From: a virus
Taxonomy: Duplodnaviria; Heunggongvirae; Uroviricota; Caudoviricetes
IMG/VR virus record: IMGVR_UViG_3300037455_000543
Coordinates: 123,136-187,135 of that record
Direction: 5' to 3' (one strand)
Length of the DNA: 64,000 nucleotides
The translations under genes and the position numbers were made by a program. This document shows, piece by piece, positions 1 through 43,261 of this stretch. How positions within the stretch are numbered: position 1 is the stretch's first letter; the number at the start of each line of letters is the position of its first letter. The notes beneath the pieces are model-generated. The model did not search any database and was not told the origin of the DNA. It saw only the letters and a list, made by a program, of their open reading frames with translations.

Positions 1-165
1 ACTTATCACGAAGTCAATGAACTTATCCGTAAGGGTGTTCATGGTCCTCATGCTGATAAGATTATCGATATGTATAACAAGAATAAGTTCAAGCTTGAAA
101 TGATTAGAATTCAGCATTTTGATCCTAAGCGTCCAGACTTCTTCTTGGAACATTTTGGTGTATAA
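1..165 (+). CDS. 3' end of a CDS (partial at the window edge), hypothetical protein ...HFDPKRPDFFLEHFGV*
   Basis: Frame 1 is open from base 1 to a TAA at 163-165. No family recognised. Confidence 0.45.
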   Translation, partial: TYHEVNELIRKGVHGPHADKIIDMYNKNKFKLEMIRIQHFDPKRPDFFLEHFGV

Positions 166-174
166 ATAAATTAT

Positions 175-525
175 GGGCTCGCCTGGTTTCGATTGGGTGA
201 TAGAGATATTAGTTGCAAGTCGAGGTCTCAGACGAGGGCACTCGTTAAAAAGTCTGAAAAAGATAAGTGCTAACACTTACGCAATGGCTGCTTAATTTAT
301 CGCAACCCTGGACCTATACCGTTAACCCGTTGGGTATAGAATCCAGTCGCAAAATGGGTTAGGAAATAGTTAAGTCTGTCTATTATTTCCGAAAATCACA
401 GGCTAGTTTATACTGATGCCGACCTTCAGGGCATAGGTATAACGAATTAGTAAATACGAAGGGAAAGCTTGTAGGAACGGATATTGAAGTTATTCAAGAC
501 AGGAGTTCGACTCTCCTCGGGTCCA
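175..525 (+). ncRNA. ssrA: tmRNA (SsrA), one-piece form; encoded tag (A)ANTYAMAA
   Basis: The 5' GGGCUCG pairs with the 3' CGGGUCC (518-524), including a G3:U wobble, followed by discriminator A. A T-arm AGGAG-UUCGACU-CUCCU lies at 501-517. The D-analog CCUGGUUUCGAUUGGG closely matches E. coli CUGGAUUCGACGGG. The tag ORF is GCU AAC ACU UAC GCA AUG GCU GCU UAA (269-295), preceded by a CUCGUUAAAAAGUCUGAAAAAGAUAAGU context parallel to E. coli. Length 351 nt. Confidence 0.85.
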
Positions 526-528
526 TTA

Positions 529-3292: not shown

Positions 3293-4150
3293 ATGAATTA
3301 TAAACATATATATTTGGAAATTATACGTAAAGCTAAAAATGAACAAATACTTGGTAATAGGCCATTAAACATATATTATAGAAGGCGTAATTTTAAAGAT
3401 GAATATTTTGAATTTCATCATATATTACCAAAATCATTATTTCCAAAATTTGAAAAAGTAAAAAAGAATTTAGTTCCATTAACTGCCAAAGAACATTTTA
3501 TATGTCATAAATTGTTATTTAAAATATATCCATGTAAATCTACAGCATATGCTTTATTAAGGCTATGTCGTAAACGTGATGATATGCATCCAATTAAATT
3601 GTCTGCACGTTCATATGAGCAATTAAGAAAAATATTAGCAAATACTTTATCAGATGCGCAAAAAGGTAAAGAACTTTCGAAAGAAACTAGAATAAAAATT
3701 TCTAATGCACTTAAAGAAGGATATAAATCAGGTAAAATTATACCACCGGCTAAAGATAAACCAGTTACTGCTGAAAAAAGAAAACAAATTTCTGAAACAT
3801 TAAAAGAAAGATATAAAAATGGATATAAAGTATGGAATAAAGATAAAAAGTGTCCAAACTTAGCAAAAAGAAAAGAAGATAGTTGGAATTATGGTAAACA
3901 TTGGTATAATAATGGTGAAATTAGCATATTAACTGAAACATGTCCTGAAGGATTTAAAGAAGGACATATTGTTAAAGTTAATGAGGAAACAGAAGAAAAT
4001 AGAAAAATAAAAATTGCAGAAAATAATAAAGGAAGACATTGGTATAATAATGGTAAAATTAATAAATTTTGCTATGAATGTCCAGAAGGTTTTGTAAAAG
4101 GATTTTTAGATCCAAGGTGGATTAAAAAAGATGATGGAAATACAAGGTAA
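3293..4150 (+). CDS. HNH homing endonuclease
   Basis: YFEFHHILPKSLFP...NLVPLTAKEHFICH (HNH motif). C-terminal repeated HWYNNG..CPEGF modules. Strong AGGAG SD. Confidence 0.75.
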   Translation: MNYKHIYLEIIRKAKNEQILGNRPLNIYYRRRNFKDEYFEFHHILPKSLFPKFEKVKKNLVPLTAKEHFICHKLLFKIYPCKSTAYALLRLCRKRDDMHPIKLSARSYEQLRKILANTLSDAQKGKELSKETRIKISNALKEGYKSGKIIPPAKDKPVTAEKRKQISETLKERYKNGYKVWNKDKKCPNLAKRKEDSWNYGKHWYNNGEISILTETCPEGFKEGHIVKVNEETEENRKIKIAENNKGRHWYNNGKINKFCYECPEGFVKGFLDPRWIKKDDGNTR

Positions 4151-5321
4151 ATATGGTAAAGCAACCGTATATACAGATAATATAGATAGCGCTGCATATG
4201 GGCAAATCTTAAATATGACTTGTCAAATATGGGCAAAAGATTCTAATATTAAAATAATGCCAGATTGTCATTGTGGGAAAGACTGTACAGTAGGTACTAC
4301 AATGCTTATTAAAAACAAGGTTGTTCCTAACCTTGTCGGTGTCGATATTGGTTGTGGAATGCTTGTCGCAAAGCTTAAGGACAAGTTTATCGAATTCGGT
4401 AAACTGGATAAGGTTATTAAGGAAAAGATTCCGTCTGGCAAGGAACATAGAAGTAACCGTCACCGTTATGCTAATGAATTTGATGAACAGTTTGAAGAAC
4501 TTATTGCCGATGTTAAACGAGAAGAACTTCTGAGTATTGCTTCACTTGGCGGAGGCAATCACTTCATTGAATGCGATAAGGATGATGAAGGTGCATTTTA
4601 TATTGTTATTCATTCTGGTTCACGCCATTTGGGTGTTGCTACTTGTGAATACTGGCAAAATCTTGCTATTAAGGACTGTGCTAATTTGACAGCCATTCGT
4701 GGTGCTGAAATTGCAAAGTATAAGAACCAAGGAAAGACTGATGCTGAAATTAAGGAACTCATGAAGGATTATGACCATTTCTCTGTTCCGAAAAATCTTT
4801 CCTATCTTACAGGCGAACATATGCAAGGTTATCTGCATGATATGGCTATTGTTCAGCAGTTTGCAGCTTTAAACCGTGCTGCAATGCTTGATGTAATCGT
4901 AAAGGAAATGGGTTTCAAGGTTGTAGAAAAGTTTGAGACTATTCATAATTATATTGACCTTGATAATATGATTCTTAGAAAAGGTAGTATTTCTGCACAG
5001 GCTGGAGAACGTGTAATTATTCCTATGAATATGAGAGACGGTTCTTTAATTTGTGTCGGTAAGGGAAATCCAGAATGGAATTATTCTGCACCTCATGGTG
5101 CTGGTAGATTGATGACCAGAGCAGATGCTAAGAATTCTATTTCCATGAAGGACTATAAGGAAGCAATGAAGGGAATTTTCACTTCTTGCGTTTCTTCTGC
5201 TACTATCGATGAAAGCCCTATGGCATATAAACCTATGGATGAAATCATTAAGAACATTGAACCTACTTGTGAAATTGAAAAAATTATCAAGCCGGTTTAT
5301 AATTTTAAGGCAGCTTTCTAA
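4131..5321 (+). CDS. rtcB: RtcB RNA-splicing ligase (3'-phosphate/5'-OH RNA ligase)
   Basis: RtcB signature motifs: MPDCHCGKDCTVGT, GVDIGCGM, GGGNHFIE, HSGSRHLG and PHGAGR (the nucleotidyl-His motif). Confidence 0.85.
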   Translation: MMEIQGKYGKATVYTDNIDSAAYGQILNMTCQIWAKDSNIKIMPDCHCGKDCTVGTTMLIKNKVVPNLVGVDIGCGMLVAKLKDKFIEFGKLDKVIKEKIPSGKEHRSNRHRYANEFDEQFEELIADVKREELLSIASLGGGNHFIECDKDDEGAFYIVIHSGSRHLGVATCEYWQNLAIKDCANLTAIRGAEIAKYKNQGKTDAEIKELMKDYDHFSVPKNLSYLTGEHMQGYLHDMAIVQQFAALNRAAMLDVIVKEMGFKVVEKFETIHNYIDLDNMILRKGSISAQAGERVIIPMNMRDGSLICVGKGNPEWNYSAPHGAGRLMTRADAKNSISMKDYKEAMKGIFTSCVSSATIDESPMAYKPMDEIIKNIEPTCEIEKIIKPVYNFKAAF

Positions 5322-31059: not shown

Positions 31060-31099
31060 GTAAAAAAATTGATACAAAATGGTCCTGAAAAATGTTCTG

Positions 31100-31140
31100 G
31101 AAAAAGAAAAAAGACCAACCAGGAGTGCTGGTTTGGTCTC
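31100..31140 (-). terminator. rho-independent terminator after the SPFH gene
   Basis: AGACCAAACCAG-CACTC-CTGGTTGGTCT followed by TTTTTTCTTTTT on the minus strand. Confidence 0.5.
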
Positions 31141-31163
31141 TAAAATTCTGAGAATTTTATATA

Positions 31164-32741
31164 TTAACCGTTGAGCTGCTTCGGTTCGGTCTTACCACCG
31201 ACACCAGCGAGCTTGCTACCCATGAGAGAGCTGAGCAATACACGCGGGTCGATACCGAGAGAGTCGGTCAAACCACTAGTAATCTGAGAGATGGTCTTGG
31301 TGATGTCACCAGTGAGCTTAGCACCGTTTCCTTCACCATACATAGTGATGTTACCAATCTTTTCCATCGGCTTAGCGACAGCACCAGCGATTTCAGGCAA
31401 CTGAGCGAAGTAAGTCTTGAGTGCATCGAGCTGCATGTCCTGCTTAGCAGCGTCACCATACTTAGCCATAGCGTCAGCCTTCTTATCAAGAGCTTCAGCT
31501 TCTGCAAGACCCTTAGCCTTAGTAGCAGCAGCTTCACCTTCACCCTTAAGCTTACTTGCACGACCTTCAGCTTCACCAGTAGCAGCAATACCCTTTGCCT
31601 TATTGACTGCAGCTTCGTAATCAGCTTCAGCCATGGTCTTAACAGCGACTGCCTTCTGTTCCTGTCCATAACGGTCAGCATCAGCACTTCTTTCTTGTTC
31701 ATACTTTTCAGCTTCAGCTTTCTTCTGTCTTTCATACAGAGCAGCATCAGATTGCTTCTGCTTTGCATAGAGTGCAGCTTCAGCCTGGAGCATTGCGGCA
31801 GACTTTTCAGCTTCTGCCTTCTTAGTAATCTGAGCTTCAAGTTCCTTCTGAGTAACAGCTACGCGACGTTCCCTAATTTCAATTTCCTTTTCCTGCTTTG
31901 CAACTTCAGCTTCAGCAGCGGTAATGTTAATTTGCTTCAACTGAGTCTGCTTCTGAATTTCATAAGCAGCATCTGCAATAGCCTTCTGATTATCTGCTTC
32001 CTTCTTCAGGTTTGCTTTCTTAATTTCAAGTTCGTTGTTTCGTTCAGCAATAGTTGTTTCGGTCTTAACTTCAGCGTCGTTTGCTTCCTTCTTAGCAACA
32101 GCCTGAGCAACCTTAATATCCTTTTCAGCCTGAGCCTTAGAAATTGCTGCCTGCTTCTTAATCGCAACGATATTATCAATACCAAGGTTAACAATCACAT
32201 CATTATCGTCTTCAAAGTTCTGAACATTGAAAGATACAAGATCAAGACCCATAGCAGCGAGGTCCGGAGTAACATTTTCTGTAACCTGCTGTGCAAATGC
32301 CTTTCGGTCACCAATCATGTCGGTAAGCTTCATCTTACCGACAATCTCTCTCATATTACCTTCAAGAACTTCATTCACAACGCCTGCAATATAATTAGTG
32401 TCCTTATTCAAGAAGTTCTGAGCTGCAATCGGCAAAAGCTTTTCATTATTAGAAATCTTAACGTTAACGTTCGCATCGACTGTCACGTTAATATAATCTG
32501 CAGTCGGAATTGATTGCTTAGTCTTGACGTCAATCTTAATAAGCTTCAGAGAAAGCACGTCAAATCTTTCAAGGAACGGAATTCTGATACCAGCTTTACC
32601 AATGATATATCTCGGCATTTTTCGAATACCAGAGATAATATATGCAGTATCAGGCGGAGCCTTAATATAAGACATCACGAAGATGATACCGAGGAAGATG
32701 AGAACAGCGGCAACGCCGCCAATGATATAGAGATTAGGCAT
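31164..32741 (-). CDS. SPFH/band-7 (flotillin-like) membrane protein with a long Ala/Glu/Lys coiled coil
   Basis: N-terminal TM helix followed by the SPFH core IIGKAGIRIPFLERFDVLSLKLIKIDVKTKQSIPTADYINVTVDANV. About 250 aa of AEAEK-type coiled coil follows. Confidence 0.75.
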   Translation of the reverse strand: MPNLYIIGGVAAVLIFLGIIFVMSYIKAPPDTAYIISGIRKMPRYIIGKAGIRIPFLERFDVLSLKLIKIDVKTKQSIPTADYINVTVDANVNVKISNNEKLLPIAAQNFLNKDTNYIAGVVNEVLEGNMREIVGKMKLTDMIGDRKAFAQQVTENVTPDLAAMGLDLVSFNVQNFEDDNDVIVNLGIDNIVAIKKQAAISKAQAEKDIKVAQAVAKKEANDAEVKTETTIAERNNELEIKKANLKKEADNQKAIADAAYEIQKQTQLKQINITAAEAEVAKQEKEIEIRERRVAVTQKELEAQITKKAEAEKSAAMLQAEAALYAKQKQSDAALYERQKKAEAEKYEQERSADADRYGQEQKAVAVKTMAEADYEAAVNKAKGIAATGEAEGRASKLKGEGEAAATKAKGLAEAEALDKKADAMAKYGDAAKQDMQLDALKTYFAQLPEIAGAVAKPMEKIGNITMYGEGNGAKLTGDITKTISQITSGLTDSLGIDPRVLLSSLMGSKLAGVGGKTEPKQLNG

Positions 32742-40262: not shown

Positions 40263-41036
40263 TTATATTACATTACTATACTGTTCTGCAAACATTCTGA
40301 ATATTTTAATATAAAATTCTATATTATTCTTTGTTTCGTTAGCACTAAATATCGGTTTTCCGTCTTCTGTCTCGATAACGTCAACCTTAAGCTTTACCGT
40401 ACAATATACGCTTCTCTGGTTTATAGAATAGCCAAGTATTTCAATTCTGGAATTATTATCTACATTTTGAGTTACATACGGCTTAAAATATCTATGAAGC
40501 TCATTTATATAACTCTTTATATCTGTGCTAATTTCATTTCTTACGTCGAAAAGCTTAATCTTTATAACTGCATAAATGTCATTGTAATGAGTATCTATGC
40601 CTATAAGTCCAGCATTCTCAACGTCATGCATAAGTCTTAATAACTTATTTTTCAATTCGACTTTCTTTATGCCGTTTGCTTCCTTAACTTTTACCATATT
40701 CTTTTCCATTTTTTCAAGAATATAGTTAGCACAGGTAGCTGGAGTATAACCGTCAGCATAACAGTAATTAATATCTTCGTTAAGTTCCTTCGGCATACTT
40801 TTTATAGTATAACCTGCTTTCTTAATCAAGGAAACTATACGTGAAAGATATTTGTTAAACTTGTCGTCAACTGATTCATTCAATGAAGTATGCATATTAC
40901 TGATATACGTTCTAGGAGAAACATCAGAAACATAGGCTTCGAATACATTATTCAAGTCCAAAGACGATACGTCAAATTTCGGATTGGTTCTCAATAAATA
41001 ATGTTCTACTGTATGCCTGTATTCTGAAAAATCCAT
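40263..41036 (-). CDS. hypothetical protein (257 aa)
   Basis: ORF. Confidence 0.5.
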   Translation of the reverse strand: MDFSEYRHTVEHYLLRTNPKFDVSSLDLNNVFEAYVSDVSPRTYISNMHTSLNESVDDKFNKYLSRIVSLIKKAGYTIKSMPKELNEDINYCYADGYTPATCANYILEKMEKNMVKVKEANGIKKVELKNKLLRLMHDVENAGLIGIDTHYNDIYAVIKIKLFDVRNEISTDIKSYINELHRYFKPYVTQNVDNNSRIEILGYSINQRSVYCTVKLKVDVIETEDGKPIFSANETKNNIEFYIKIFRMFAEQYSNVI

Positions 41037-41058
41037 ATATCTTATTTATAACCAAAAA

Positions 41059-41403
41059 TTAACGTTTAATCTGAGATTCTACCTTATTTTTCTTATTCAG
41101 TTTCATTCTGAGAAAATCTCTGACTTTCTGTAATGACGGGTATTTGATAATCTGACCTTCAGTAAGGTCATTCCATATATCAGAATATCCGTTAAACCAC
41201 ATTACAAACCACCAATAGTTCTGTGTGCCATACAATTTATAGGATATTACATCTGGCCTACATTCACAGAACTTATTTACATACATATAGTTTAGCTTAC
41301 CGAAATTAAAATGGTCATCGGTAAAAGAACCAAGGTCATACTGTGCTATATTATCAACCAATTCTTGATATAAAAATGTGCTTCTTGATGCAATATTATC
41401 CAT
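41059..41403 (-). CDS. hypothetical protein (114 aa)
   Basis: ORF. Confidence 0.5.
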   Translation of the reverse strand: MDNIASRSTFLYQELVDNIAQYDLGSFTDDHFNFGKLNYMYVNKFCECRPDVISYKLYGTQNYWWFVMWFNGYSDIWNDLTEGQIIKYPSLQKVRDFLRMKLNKKNKVESQIKR

Positions 41404-41486
41404 AAAACTACCTTAGTTTTATATATTTATAACTTAAAATTCTCAGAATTATTCAAAAATAAGTTTACAAAAGCATTTCCGTTTAT

Positions 41487-41494
41487 TAAATTTG
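41487..41494 (+). promoter_or_regulatory. -7 box TAAATTTG preceding the GC-rich unit
   Basis: Matches TAnnTTTG. Confidence 0.35.
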
Positions 41495-41760
41495 GGAAGA
41501 CATTCAGAAGTCTTGTTCCTCGGAGCGAAGCTCAACCCAATGATGTTGTCGGTAGAGGGCAAGCCAGCGAAAGTCGAGGTGTGGCTTTCTAACACTGAAC
41601 AGGTACTAACTGTTGCTGAACCACCACTGACGTATTATCTAACGAATAATACACGTAGCCGCCATTGGCACGGTATGATATAGTCGGAGTACAGGATGAC
41701 CAGCCCGTAAGCATATCGATAAGTCCCGAGAGTTGACGCCAGAAGTAGATCTGGATTTTT
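41495..41760 (+). ncRNA. candidate structured ncRNA (about 265 nt, GC-rich island), family unknown
   Basis: GC is roughly 50% against a 33% background. Flanked by a promoter box and a terminator CCAGA-AGTAG-ATCTGG plus ATTTTT (41739-41760). Multiple local stems (AAGAC/GTCTT, GAGC-GAA-GCTC, AGCC..GGCT, GCCA-TGGC). The only ORF is TTG-initiated with 63 codons. Confidence 0.4.
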
Positions 41761-41826
41761 CTCTTATACCTGTATAGGCTCGATGTCTCAACCAGAATTT
41801 TGACTATGTGGTATATGTTTACATGA

Positions 41827-41834
41827 TATAAATA
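41827..41834 (+). promoter_or_regulatory. T4-late-like TATAAATA box abutting the start codon
   Basis: TATAAATAATGTATG; the gene ATG is at 41839. Confidence 0.35.
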
Positions 41835-41838
41835 ATGT

Positions 41839-42327
41839 ATGAAATACGGTTCATTTAAAAATTATGCAAGTCTGATTACCGAAGGAAAATTTCTCTTTGA
41901 GCAAGATCTATCTTTACAAGACTTGGTTGATAATTTCAGAAAAGTTTTTCCTTATGCAAAGGCTGATTGTAATGTCCAGCACTTCAAAGTAGACGGTAAA
42001 GACGGAAAACAAATGATTTGCAAAGGACAAGTTCAGTCTGCAACTCACCCGAATGAACATTATGAAGTTACAGTAGAATTCTATAGAGACGATATAGACA
42101 TTCCTTTCAGTGTTACAAATATCGGTAAAGTAAACTGTACATGTGATGCATATCGTTATAATCTAAGTCACCCGAATTCAAAGAATAATGTTCAGACAAA
42201 ACCTAAACAATCATGGTCAGGCATTCCAAACAGTGAAAGAAACCCTGACAAGGTTCCTTCTGTTTGTAAACATCTCTATACTTTCCTATTATTCCTTTAT
42301 AATAAAGGTATCATCAGAAATAACTAA
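41839..42327 (+). CDS. SWIM zinc-finger protein
   Basis: CTCDAYRYN...SVCKHLYTFLLFL, which is the CxCxnCxH SWIM signature. Confidence 0.5.
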   Translation: MKYGSFKNYASLITEGKFLFEQDLSLQDLVDNFRKVFPYAKADCNVQHFKVDGKDGKQMICKGQVQSATHPNEHYEVTVEFYRDDIDIPFSVTNIGKVNCTCDAYRYNLSHPNSKNNVQTKPKQSWSGIPNSERNPDKVPSVCKHLYTFLLFLYNKGIIRNN

Positions 42328-42373
42328 AAAATCAAAATAAATTTTTAAAAATATAGTAGTTGATAAAATTACT

Positions 42374-42381
42374 ATATTTTA
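42374..42381 (+). promoter_or_regulatory. -7 box TATATTTT
   Basis: AAATTACTATATTTT lies 4 nt before the ATG at 42386. Confidence 0.35.
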
Positions 42382-42385
42382 TTTT

Positions 42386-43261
42386 ATGAATTATAATAAT
42401 CCTAAACTACGAATACTTAATATTACACATGCGGATATGGATGGAATTGCATCTGCTATCGTGCTTAAAAATTTTTACGAAACAGTCTATACTGTACCAG
42501 TTACCTACAATACAGAGTGGACAATAAAGAATGAAATTCTTACTAACTACAAGGATAAGTTCGACTGTATAATCTGTACTGATTTTTATCCAGAACAGAC
42601 ATTGAGTTTCCTCAAGGAACATGCCGTAACATTGGTTCTTGATCATCACGAAAGTGTAGAACAATATAACAATGACAAGGATATTGTTATCAATACTGCA
42701 TATTCTGGAACGAAACTAACATATAACTTTATTTCCAAGTTCAAGGATATCAAGTATCTTGAAGAATTGGTTAATATCGTTAACGACTGGGATATGTTTA
42801 TTCTCAAAGATAAACGTAGCGCATATTTCAATAATATGTTCTGGGAAATGGGTCTCAAGTGGTTCATGAGACGATTTATTACCGGTAATGTTTCATTATA
42901 TCCTGAAGAAAAGAGATATTTCGTTGACGCACAGAAAGAATTCAAAGACATGTATGAGTCTCTTGTTATTTCTGACCTTGCAAGAAACGGTGTATACTTC
43001 GAATCTTCAAGATTCCATTACGAATGTATTGAAGCACTGAAGAAAGAAGGCTATAAGTGGTTCGTCATCAAGAACAAGAATAACCTATCAGTAAGATGTG
43101 ACGATATTGATTTGACCTATGTCGTCAAGGAACTCGGTAAAGGCGGTGGACATGTGCATGCCATTGGTATTCCTATTACAAAGAACGATGATGCTGGTTT
43201 ACTTGTAAAGAACATTGAACGAATTGTCGATTCTTATTATATGAACATGATTGACGACTAA
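42386..43261 (+). CDS. DHH-DHHA1 phosphoesterase (NrnA/DhhP-like)
   Basis: ADMDGIASA (motif I), LVLDHHES (DHH motif), GKGGGHVHAIG (DHHA1 GGGH motif). Confidence 0.65.
   Translation: MNYNNPKLRILNITHADMDGIASAIVLKNFYETVYTVPVTYNTEWTIKNEILTNYKDKFDCIICTDFYPEQTLSFLKEHAVTLVLDHHESVEQYNNDKDIVINTAYSGTKLTYNFISKFKDIKYLEELVNIVNDWDMFILKDKRSAYFNNMFWEMGLKWFMRRFITGNVSLYPEEKRYFVDAQKEFKDMYESLVISDLARNGVYFESSRFHYECIEALKKEGYKWFVIKNKNNLSVRCDDIDLTYVVKELGKGGGHVHAIGIPITKNDDAGLLVKNIERIVDSYYMNMIDD

What the first reader, a model, noticed from the sequence alone, without database searches (positions are those of the whole stretch)
41487..41760. Discrete GC-rich transcription unit that looks like a novel structured ncRNA
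A segment of about 265 nt has roughly 50% GC in a 33% GC genome. It sits between convergent and divergent protein genes. It is bracketed by a host-type -7 promoter box (TAAATTTG) and a clean intrinsic terminator (CCAGA-AGTAG-ATCTGG plus U-run). It contains many short GC stems. Its only ORF starts with TTG and encodes a compositionally odd 63-aa peptide. It immediately precedes the SWIM zinc-finger and DHH-phosphoesterase genes. No tmRNA, tRNA, RNase P or other common riboswitch signature was recognisable by eye.
Basis: seen in the sequence. Interest (0 to 1): 0.75.

Follow-up and report, generated by a model that had tools for sequence, protein, structure and literature searches.

The report
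Phage structured RNA, extended cow-rumen-2
The GC-rich segment is a real non-coding RNA gene of a T4-like phage; its centre matches the catalogued but uncharacterised Rfam family cow-rumen-2, and comparison with about 50 relatives shows the RNA is roughly 300 nt, three times the catalogued motif, with a well-supported pseudoknot.

Summary
Window 41495-41760 has 47.7% GC against 33.9% for the window. It has its own promoter-like site, a hairpin plus U-run, and a 63-aa TTG ORF.

It is not a new RNA. Positions 41626-41731 match Rfam RF02947 (cow-rumen-2) over the full model, at 99.3 bits against a cut-off of 66.

I collected 58 unique relatives, all on phage-like contigs. Conservation runs far beyond the 106-nt Rfam motif, from about 41500 to about 41800.

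- **5' domain (new):** helix H1, a three-way junction (Pj/H2/H3) and pseudoknot PK1. 95.7% of cells pair, against 35-45% in slid controls.
- **3' domain:** A conserved hairpin (H7) and tail follow it.
- **ORF:** cut to 20 aa in the closest relatives and absent elsewhere.

The RNA is a self-contained promoter-plus-RNA cassette. Its genomic position differs between phage lineages, and large contigs carry two to four different copies. Neighbouring genes usually have T4-type late promoters (TATAAATA).

Function is unknown. My best inference is an early, trans-acting structured RNA, either a protein scaffold or decoy, or a ribozyme. It is not a leader of the SWIM/DHH genes.

The parts
41464..41494 (+). 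Promoter-like site: TTTACA (41464-41469), 17-nt spacer, TAAATT/TAAATTTG (41487-41494)
   Evidence: The same arrangement occurs upstream of relatives.
41500..41800 (+). Whole conserved RNA unit. The ends are approximate: the 5' end is inferred from the promoter and the conserved ACAU, and the 3' end is not mapped.
   Evidence: Conservation in 58 unique relatives. Model R1 matches 41507-41664 (143.9 bits) and R2 matches 41617-41796 (144.4 bits).
41512..41563 (+). Helix H1 (41512-16 with 41559-63; 41518-21 with 41555-58). It encloses the near-invariant segments CGGAGCGAAG, the small hairpin 41532-34/41541-43 with loop CAAyyCAAUG, and UGUCGGUA.
   Evidence: helix 1: 95.7% of cells paired, and 8 of 9 pairs change on both sides.
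41565..41618 (+). Three-way junction: Pj (41565-68 with 41615-18), H2 (41569-75 with 41583-89) and H3 (41598-602 with 41610-14). H3 is absent in some relatives.
   Evidence: helices 3, 4 and 6: 98.5%, 94.7% and 98.4% paired, with compensatory changes at 15 of 16 pairs.
41578..41625 (+). Pseudoknot PK1: the H2 loop GGUG (41578-81) pairs with CACC (41622-25).
   Evidence: Not part of the model used for the alignment, yet 92.8% paired and 4 of 4 pairs are compensatory. At least 12 different sequence combinations occur.
41626..41731 (+). Rfam RF02947 cow-rumen-2 match. It comprises H4 (41632-38 with 41646-52), the linker AGCCGCCA (41657-64), and the long arm H5 (41665-70/41722-28, 41671-77/41712-18, 41685-90/41702-07) with apical loop ACAGGAUGACC (41691-41701).
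   Evidence: 99.3 bits, model positions 1-106 of 106. H4 94% paired, H5b 94%, H5c 86%.
41739..41760 (+). H6: terminator-like hairpin CCAGA/UCUGG plus U-run. This is the variable element of the family.
   Evidence: Variability in relatives.
41763..41789 (+). H7 hairpin (41763-68 with 41773-78, loop CCUG) and conserved tail GCUCGAUGUCUC.
   Evidence: AGGCT is nearly invariant in A3. The stem varies with compensation across relatives. A formal count on the MAFFT alignment gives only 65.5% paired, because the variable loop length causes misalignment.
41693..41771 (+). Candidate loop-loop contact PK2: AGG (41693-95) with CCU (41769-71).
   Evidence: 82.9% of cells compatible, but no compensatory pair was counted. 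There is a register shift GGUU/(A)ACC in L303, L310 and L312, and L320 is intermediate. Tentative.
41792..41802 (+). Second copy of the H6 motif CCAGAA (first copy 41739-41744), followed by UUUUG.
   Evidence: The lineage-specific repeat is present in relatives. No complementary partner lies inside the RNA.
41827..41834 (+). TATAAATA (T4 late-promoter consensus) in front of the downstream gene (ATG 41839). Not part of the RNA.
   Evidence: An exact TATAAATA lies downstream of the RNA in 32 of 51 relatives, against 0.25 per kb per strand in the background.
41492..41683 (+). 63-aa TTG ORF. Judged spurious.
   Evidence: No Pfam hit.

Best explanation
**What it is (shown).** This is the window's single copy of the RNA family catalogued in Rfam as cow-rumen-2 (RF02947). 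The real gene is about 300 nt, not 106 nt.

**Transcription (inferred).** It is transcribed on its own from a host-type (sigma-70-like) promoter, so probably early in infection. The phage is T4-like and its neighbouring genes use TATAAATA late promoters.

**Fold.** The RNA has three parts:
1. A 5' domain: helix H1 around a nearly invariant junction, then a three-way junction locked by pseudoknot PK1.
2. The Rfam core: hairpin H4, the invariant linker AGCCGCCA, and the long arm H5 with apical loop ACAGGAUGACC.
3. A 3' domain: a variable hairpin H6, then a conserved hairpin H7 whose UCCU loop may touch the H5 loop.

**Mechanism (inferred).** The RNA works in trans through its folded shape. It would bind and hold a protein or other factor of the host or phage, or less likely catalyse a reaction. 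It does not act as the leader of the gene that follows it.

The identity, extent, non-coding nature, helices, PK1 and variable genomic position are shown. The early timing, the trans action and the partner are inferred.
For: - **Identity.** Rfam match of 99.3 bits (cut-off 66), E = 6.8e-18, over the full model. It is the only family matched at E <= 10.
- **Extent.** Sequence 5' and 3' of the motif is conserved in 58 unique relatives.
- **Structure of the 5' domain.** 95.7% of cells pair, against 66% in shuffles and 35-45% when partners are slid. The covariation score is 0.713 against 0.07-0.11. 35 of 39 pairs change on both sides. PK1 is 92.8% paired although it was not in the model.
- **Structure of the Rfam half.** H4 and H5b are 94% paired, each with 7 of 7 pairs compensatory.
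- **Strand.** Frequent U-G pairs (for example UG in 35 sequences at one H1 pair) fit only the + strand.
- **Non-coding.** The ORF is lost in the nearest relatives.
- **Own unit.** A promoter-like site sits at a fixed distance in relatives, often right after the upstream gene's terminator hairpin.
- **Not tied to one gene.** It occurs in at least five contexts, including between opposite-strand genes. It is absent upstream of DHH and baseplate-hub-like homologues in other lineages, some of whose contigs carry the RNA elsewhere.
- **Own terminator.** A strong hairpin lies 30-40 nt beyond the conserved 3' end where no co-oriented gene follows.
- **Late promoters.** TATAAATA lies between the RNA and the downstream gene in 32 of 51 relatives.
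- **Copy number.** Three large contigs carry two to four different copies.
- **Phage type.** NrdD, gp41-like helicase, RegA, gp53-like, neck and tail-tube proteins are present.
Against: - There are no expression data, so neither RNA end is mapped.
- The single-sequence fold is not unusually stable (z = -0.14).
- In most contexts a co-oriented gene starts 50-100 nt downstream. Read-through, and therefore a cis effect, cannot be excluded.
- No partner protein or target was identified.
- The many invariant unpaired nucleotides would fit a ribozyme as well as a protein-binding RNA.
- The twin lineage-specific motif (H6 loop and 3' trailer) is not explained by this model.
- PK2 and the pairing partner of the 3' tail are unresolved.
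Confidence: 0.55

Rival explanations
1. It is a cis-acting leader. The RNA is the 5' part of a transcript that reads into the downstream gene. It would control that gene by attenuation at H6 or by making RNA polymerase resistant to termination, as the put RNAs of phage HK022 do.
For: - A co-oriented gene follows within about 100 nt in most contexts.
- The window and some relatives have a hairpin plus U-run inside the conserved unit.
- Several independently promoted copies per genome recall putL/putR (my own knowledge, not tested here).
Against: - The downstream genes are functionally unrelated: SWIM-like, baseplate-hub-like, tail tube, a 999-aa protein.
- They usually have their own TATAAATA promoter after the RNA.
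- In context D and in L018 only opposite-strand genes follow. In L304/L311 a strong hairpin terminator follows the RNA.
- H6 has no U-run in two of the three subgroups.
- Homologous downstream genes do without the RNA in other lineages.
Confidence: 0.15
2. It is the RNA of a mobile or selfish cassette, for example a guide-like RNA or a ribozyme that travels with its promoter. The lineage-specific twin motif would be a programmable recognition sequence.
For: - The position differs between lineages, and contigs carry two to four copies.
- The 6-11-nt motif in the H6 loop is repeated in the 3' trailer and differs between lineages. The own-sequence repeat is at least 7 nt in 21 of 31 sequences, against 12% of cross pairs.
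- That motif has no complementary partner inside the RNA.
Against: - No nuclease, transposase, reverse transcriptase or homing-endonuclease gene is consistently adjacent.
- No terminal inverted repeats were seen.
- There is no Rfam match to HEARO, IS605-associated or group I/II intron RNAs.
- The motifs are short and A- or U-rich, so they may simply be protein or RNase sites.
Confidence: 0.1
3. It marks a replication origin or a clamp-loading site. An early transcript would form an R-loop in the AT-rich DNA just downstream and prime replication, as at T4 oriF/oriG or with ColE1 RNA II. Since T4 late transcription depends on replication, this would also activate nearby late promoters.
For: - It has an early-type promoter, and there are several copies per large genome.
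- It lies next to late promoters. In the window it lies between two divergent ones, TATTTATA 41424-31 and TATAAATA 41827-34.
- GC skew changes sign near 41400.
Against: - The skew change coincides with the switch in gene orientation.
- As far as I know, known T4 origin transcripts are not conserved structured RNAs.
- Nothing here tests R-loop formation.
- In context A the RNA lies inside a block of same-strand genes.
Confidence: 0.07
4. It encodes the 63-aa peptide.
For: An ORF with a TTG start spans 41492-41683.
Against: - The ORF is cut to 20 aa in the closest relatives (L016, L056). No ORF at the same place is conserved across the other relatives.
- It has no Pfam match.
- Substitutions follow base-pairing, not codons.
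- Insertions and deletions in H2 and H3 are not multiples of three.
Confidence: 0.01

Closest known systems
cow-rumen-2 RNA (Rfam RF02947)
   Same: Window 41626-41731 matches the whole model above the curated threshold. The same hit occurs in all 12 relatives tested.
   Different: - The Rfam model covers only 106 nt (H4, linker, H5).
- The conserved RNA also has a roughly 125-nt 5' domain with a pseudoknot and a roughly 65-nt 3' domain.
- Rfam types it only as "Gene; sRNA".
- In the held library the family name appears only in the Rfam 15 papers.
- From my own knowledge it is one of the motifs of Weinberg et al. 2017 (PMC5737381). The supplement that would describe it is not held.
ROOL and GOLLD large ornate RNAs
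   Same: They are structured RNAs found in rumen or phage sequences, often near tRNAs, with unknown function (PMC5737381). They form RNA-only assemblies (PMC12286853). In one lineage (L304/L311) this RNA directly follows a 17-18 tRNA array.
   Different: - There is no Rfam match to either.
- This RNA is about half the size of ROOL.
- No tRNAs lie within the roughly 48 other loci scanned.
- Self-assembly was not tested.
put RNAs of phage HK022 (processive antitermination; my own knowledge)
   Same: Each is a phage RNA element placed directly after its own promoter, with more than one copy per genome.
   Different: - put RNAs are about 70 nt, made of two hairpins, and act only in cis on the transcribing polymerase.
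- This RNA is about 300 nt and pseudoknotted.
- It also occurs where no co-oriented gene follows.
manA and wcaG motifs of T4-like cyanophages
   Same: They are conserved structured RNAs carried by T4-like phages and known mainly from metagenomes (PMC2864571).
   Different: - Those are proposed riboswitches in the 5' UTRs of metabolic genes.
- This RNA shows no consistent gene association.
- There is no sequence or model similarity.
Stable RNAs C and D of the T4 tRNA cluster (my own knowledge; not tested)
   Same: They are small stable non-coding RNAs of a T4-type phage with unknown function. The L304/L311 copy sits at the end of a tRNA cluster.
   Different: No similarity was tested with the models. 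BLAST of the window RNA found nothing in 50,697 cultured-phage records.

Membership tests
Rfam RF02947 cow-rumen-2 | Covariance-model score at or above the curated gathering score (66 bits) over the full model | tested here: met
   99.3 bits, model positions 1-106 of 106, E = 6.8e-18. E = 6.4e-20 in the local scan.
Rfam RF02947 cow-rumen-2 | The model's helices are kept by compensatory changes in relatives | tested here: met
   H4 is 94% paired with 7 of 7 pairs compensatory. H5b is 94% with 7 of 7. H5c is 86% with 4 of 5. The basal H5a is weak at 66%.
Independent sRNA gene with intrinsic terminator | Own promoter, and a conserved GC-rich hairpin plus U-run at the 3' end | tested here: inconclusive
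   The promoter-like site is conserved. The hairpin plus U-run at 41739-41760 is present in the window, but it is not conserved as a terminator and is followed by conserved sequence. Strong terminators lie further downstream in some contexts.
Riboswitch or other cis-regulatory leader | Consistent position in the 5' UTR of functionally related genes | tested here: not met
   There are at least five unrelated downstream contexts, some with only opposite-strand genes. Late promoters intervene. Homologous downstream genes lack the RNA in other lineages.
Group I intron | Match to the intron core model, and insertion within a gene with flanking exons | tested here: not met
   No Intron_gpI hit at E <= 10 in the window region or at E <= 5 in 12 relatives. 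The upstream gene is on the other strand, and a promoter immediately precedes the RNA. Short resemblances to the Tetrahymena core that I recalled from memory did not fit the helix order found here.
RNase P RNA, tmRNA, 6S, SRP, cobalamin riboswitch | Match to the respective Rfam covariance model | tested here: not met
   The only hit is cow-rumen-2. The window's tmRNA is elsewhere, at 175-528.
ROOL/GOLLD-type large phage RNAs | Match to the Rfam models, size above 500 nt, and frequent tRNA neighbourhood | tested here: not met
   No hit. The RNA is about 300 nt. tRNAs are adjacent in only one lineage. Homo-oligomer formation cannot be tested with these tools.
Protein-coding small ORF | The ORF is conserved in relatives | tested here: not met

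The most novel reading that the evidence does not exclude
The catalogued 106-nt motif is only the core of a previously undescribed class of RNA. The class is about 300 nt, pseudoknotted, specific to T4-like phages of rumen and gut communities, and present as several independently promoted paralogues per genome. Each copy carries a lineage-specific single-stranded motif twice, once in the H6 loop and once in the 3' trailer. Such an RNA could be a new ribozyme, an RNA-only assembly of the ROOL/GOLLD kind, or a programmable RNA that recognises a target by base pairing during host takeover.
Probability: 0.2. Interest if true: 0.8.

Novelty: new member of a known kind. Interest (0 to 1): 0.45.

Why it matters
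- **For annotation:** the segment should be labelled cow-rumen-2 RNA. It is neither a hypothetical 63-aa protein nor a novel RNA.
- **For RNA biology:** the curated family model captures about a third of the conserved molecule. The full RNA has a covariation-proven pseudoknot, many invariant unpaired nucleotides, several copies per large phage genome and its own early-type promoter. Catalytic and tightly protein-bound RNAs share this combination of features. It gives experimenters a defined construct (about 41500-41800) for probing, cryo-EM, pull-downs or cleavage assays.
- **For phage biology:** it adds a structured RNA to the early programme of an uncultured group of T4-like phages. In this window the phage also encodes a tmRNA and an RtcB ligase.

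Tried and rejected
- **BLAST against cultured phages.** BLAST of 41440-41800 against 50,697 records found no match.
- **Genome and metagenome scans.** Only five metagenome loci were true members, and none of the 120 genome rows were.
- **Group I intron, RNase P P4-like and cobalamin B12-box-like resemblances.** I recalled these from memory. I rejected them because no Rfam model hits and the helix order does not fit.
- **tRNA association.** It holds in only one lineage.
- **Closing helix between the 5' leader AAGUC and the 3' GGCUU, or AGCC with GGCU.** The nucleotides involved do not vary or they conflict with proven helices, so there is no covariation. GGCU turned out to be part of the 3' strand of H7.
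- **A common helix between the segment after H5 and the 3' tail.** It is plausible in some subgroups (AGAUY with GAUCU) but not general.
- **PK2.** It is compatible but not formally supported.
- **Formal count for H7.** It fails on both the MAFFT and the model alignments because loop length and stem position vary.
- **Intramolecular complement of the twin motif.** None was found.
- **The other GC-rich stretch, 31070-31660.** It is coding sequence of a flotillin-like gene, not RNA.

Full report
**1. The observation**

The sequence at 41487-41760 is as described.
- GC is 0.477 for 41495-41760, against 0.339 for the window. Only 0.5% of 266-nt windows are as GC-rich. The only other such stretch (31070-31660) lies inside a flotillin/SPFH-like ORF.
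- TAAATTTG lies at 41487-41494. The consensus scan reads it as TTTACA(41464), 17 nt, TAAATT.
- The only terminator-like site in 41000-42400 is CCAGAAGTAGATCTGG (41739-41754) followed by ATTTTTCTCT.
- A TTG ORF of 63 aa spans 41492-41683.
- The upstream gene (41059-41403, minus strand) resembles a baseplate-wedge/gp53 protein. The downstream genes are a 162-aa protein (41839-42327) and a DHH phosphoesterase (42386-43261). The unit is therefore divergent from its upstream neighbour and co-directional with its downstream one. Nothing is convergent.
- Folded alone, the RNA is no more stable than shuffles (-70.9 kcal/mol, z = -0.14). The stems seen by eye are not evidence in themselves.

**2. What it matches**

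Scanning the whole window against Rfam gives two hits above threshold.
- A tmRNA at 175-528.
- cow-rumen-2 (RF02947) at 41626-41731 on the + strand: 99.3 bits against a cut-off of 66, over model positions 1-106 of 106.

A permissive scan of 41300-41900 (E <= 10) finds nothing else. ARAGORN finds no tRNA there.

In the held literature the family name appears only in the Rfam 15 papers, where two covarying pairs were added. The 2017 survey of 224 motifs is held, but its supplement is not. Rfam types the family only as "Gene; sRNA". So the RNA is catalogued, and I found no functional work on it.

**3. Relatives**

- An exact two-anchor pattern from the motif found 60 loci in IMG/VR, two of them chance hits.
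- A pattern from the conserved 5' sequence added divergent members whose core motifs vary: ACAGGTTGACC, ACAGGAAGACC, ACAGGAGGACC, ATGCCGCCA and others.
- Five more came from metagenomes.
- The total is 58 unique sequences.
- The genome and metagenome scans were largely wasted on chance hits because I loosened the pattern.
- BLAST against 50,697 cultured-phage records found nothing.

**4. The RNA is much larger than the Rfam motif**

Sequence on both sides of the motif is conserved across all relatives.

*5' side.* I built a model of the 5' domain (R1, 161 positions). It finds exactly one copy per locus, and in the window it matches 41507-41664 at 143.9 bits. I counted pairs on the resulting alignment of 50 distinct sequences.

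| Measure | Observed | Shuffled | Partners slid |
|---|---|---|---|
| Cells forming a standard pair | 95.7% | 66.2% | 35-45% |
| Covariation score | 0.713 | 0.187 | 0.07-0.11 |

35 of 39 pairs change on both sides.

The helices, in window coordinates:

| Helix | Coordinates |
|---|---|
| H1 | 41512-16/41559-63 and 41518-21/41555-58 |
| Small inner hairpin | 41532-34/41541-43 |
| Pj | 41565-68/41615-18 |
| H2 | 41569-75/41583-89 |
| H3 | 41598-602/41610-14 |
| H4 | 41632-38/41646-52 |

*Pseudoknot PK1.* The H2 loop (GGUG, 41578-81) pairs with CACC (41622-25). This pseudoknot was not in the model, so the alignment was not fitted to it. It is still 92.8% paired, with compensatory change at all four pairs. 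The combinations seen include GAAC/GUUC, GUUC/GAAC, GGAC/GUCC, GAUAC/GUAUC, AAUCG/CGAUU, GUUAG/CUAAC, AUUGC/GCAAU and GGCG/CGCC. The last occurs in the window's closest relative.

*Strand.* Frequent U-G pairs fix the strand as +.

*Rfam half.* On an unfitted MAFFT alignment of 31 sequences, H4 and the middle of H5 are 94% paired, each with 7 of 7 compensatory pairs.

*Divergent subgroup.* L014, L252 and L181 keep H2, PK1 and everything 3' of them, but have a different 5' end.

**5.

After H5 comes a conserved RUYGA motif, then a hairpin H6 that differs between subgroups.
- In the window's subgroup H6 is often followed by U's.
- In two other subgroups its loop is A-rich (CCAAAAG, UCAAAACAAAGA) and no U-run follows.

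Next comes hairpin H7 (window 41763-68/41773-78). Its loop is UCCU-like, its 3' strand AUAGGCU is almost invariant, and a tail ending in GUCUC follows. A model of the 3' half (R2) matches the window over 41617-41796 at 144.4 bits.

Where no co-oriented gene follows the RNA (L022 group, L311/L304, L018, L321, L305), a strong hairpin terminator lies 30-40 nt beyond this conserved end. The transcript therefore most likely runs past 41760 to about 41800, at least in part. The hairpin at 41739-41754 is an internal, variable element that may also stop some transcripts.

A loop-loop contact between AGG(A) of the H5 loop and (U)CCU of the H7 loop is compatible in 83% of cells. L303, L310 and L312 show a shifted version (GGUU with AACC/ACC). 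No compensatory pair was counted, so it stays tentative. I could not find a general pairing partner for the tail.

**6. An unexplained feature**

The motif in or next to the H6 loop is repeated in the single-stranded trailer after the tail, and it differs between lineages. Examples are CCAGAA in the window (41739-44 and 41792-97), and ACAGAU, ACGGAAUAU, GACGAUA, CCAAAAG, AAACAAAGA and AGAAAAAAAG elsewhere.
- The repeat within one RNA is at least 7 nt in 21 of 31 sequences.
- Only 12% of cross-lineage pairs reach that length.
- No complementary partner exists inside the RNA.

Two identical single-stranded sites could bind a dimeric protein or a common nucleic-acid target. I cannot tell which.

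**7. Not coding**

The 63-aa ORF is cut to 20 aa in the nearest relatives (L016, L056). No ORF at the same place is conserved across the other relatives. It has no Pfam match.

**8. Genomic setting**

The window encodes NrdD, helicases including a gp41-like DnaB helicase (about 31% identical to those of T4-like cyanophages), a gp53-like protein, a tmRNA and RtcB. Relatives' neighbours include neck, tail-tube and baseplate-hub-like proteins and RegA. These are T4-like phages.

The RNA occurs in at least five contexts:
- after neck genes and before a baseplate-hub-like gene;
- before SWIM-like and DHH genes, as in the window;
- before tail-tube genes;
- next to a 999-aa protein;
- between opposite-strand genes.

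In L304/L311 it ends a 17-18 tRNA array. No tRNAs lie within the other loci scanned.

DHH homologues at about 56% identity, and baseplate-hub-like homologues at 37-50% identity, have no RNA upstream. Some of those contigs carry the RNA elsewhere.

Three large contigs carry two to four different copies: four on a 415-kb contig, and two each on contigs of 411 kb and 230 kb. The window has one copy.

Each copy has a promoter-like site at a fixed distance: TTTACA/G, 16-17 nt, TAnnTT(TG) in 23 of 43 distinct upstream regions. In most of the rest the box directly follows the upstream terminator hairpin. This site fits a sigma-70-type promoter as well as the Bacteroidetes -7 box, so I do not infer the host from it.

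The genes around the RNA carry the T4 late-promoter consensus TATAAATA.
- It lies downstream of the RNA in 32 of 51 relatives, against 0.25 per kb per strand in the background.
- In the window it lies on both sides, at 41424-31 (minus strand) and 41827-34.

**9. Interpretation**

*Shown.* It is a member of cow-rumen-2. The RNA is about 300 nt and non-coding. It has the helices listed and pseudoknot PK1. It is an independent promoter-plus-RNA cassette whose position varies between lineages.

*Inferred.* It is made early from a host-type promoter, and it acts in trans through its fold, as a scaffold or decoy for a protein or as a ribozyme. I give this 0.55 overall. The identity part is near certain and the mechanism part is about even.

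*Rivals.*
- A cis-acting leader or antiterminator: 0.15.
- The RNA of a mobile or programmable cassette: 0.10.
- An origin or R-loop primer: 0.07.
- A coding gene: 0.01.

**10. Novelty and score**

The family is known, so the window's RNA is a new member of a known kind. The 5' domain with PK1, the 3' domain, the T4-like early-cassette setting, the multiple copies and the twin motif are not in the Rfam model, and I found them in no paper held here. Interest is moderate at 0.45. The most novel reading not excluded is a new ribozyme, assembly or guide-like class, with probability about 0.2.

Noticed in passing
window 161-528: A phage-encoded tmRNA (Rfam 139.5 bits, tag peptide ANTYAMAA*) lies at 175-528. 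An exact TATAAATA (T4 late-promoter consensus) sits at 161-168 just upstream, so it may be expressed late.
   Followed up: partly
window 4131-5321 (+): An RtcB RNA ligase gene (Pfam PF01139, E = 2.9e-57) lies a few kb from the tmRNA. This suggests the phage carries RNA-repair functions.
   Followed up: no
window 31070-31660: This is the only other stretch as GC-rich as the finding (up to 0.51). It lies inside a flotillin/SPFH (Band_7 plus Flot) ORF at 31164-32741 (-) and has no meaningful Rfam hit.
   Followed up: yes
window 41424-41431 (-) and 41827-41834 (+): The RNA lies between two divergent TATAAATA late-promoter consensus sites that serve the flanking genes.
   Followed up: partly
L011, L015, L017, L049 and L033, between the RNA and the tail-tube gene: A run of about four short GC-rich hairpins occurs here (for example CCAGGCAACGCCTG, GGCGCATAGCGCC, GCTGGCTTGCCAGC, GGGCGCTTGCGCCC). 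They are unexplained.
   Followed up: no
L304 414-1933 and L311 1820-4041 (- strand): Arrays of 17-18 tRNA genes lie immediately upstream of the RNA on the same strand in one phage lineage.
   Followed up: partly
window 41739-41744 and 41792-41797; equivalent sites in relatives: A lineage-specific 6-11-nt motif occurs twice per RNA, in the H6 loop and in the 3' trailer. It has no complementary partner inside the RNA.
   Followed up: partly
L014/L050, L252 and L181: This subgroup has a different, longer 5' end in place of the H1 domain. It keeps H2, PK1 and the whole Rfam and 3' part.
   Followed up: partly
context A loci (for example L019), upstream of the baseplate-hub-like gene: Strong Shine-Dalgarno-like AAAGGTGA sits before the start codons. 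This sits awkwardly with a Bacteroidetes host, which the TAnnTTTG box might suggest. That Bacteroidetes make little use of SD sequences is my own knowledge. The host is left open.
   Followed up: no
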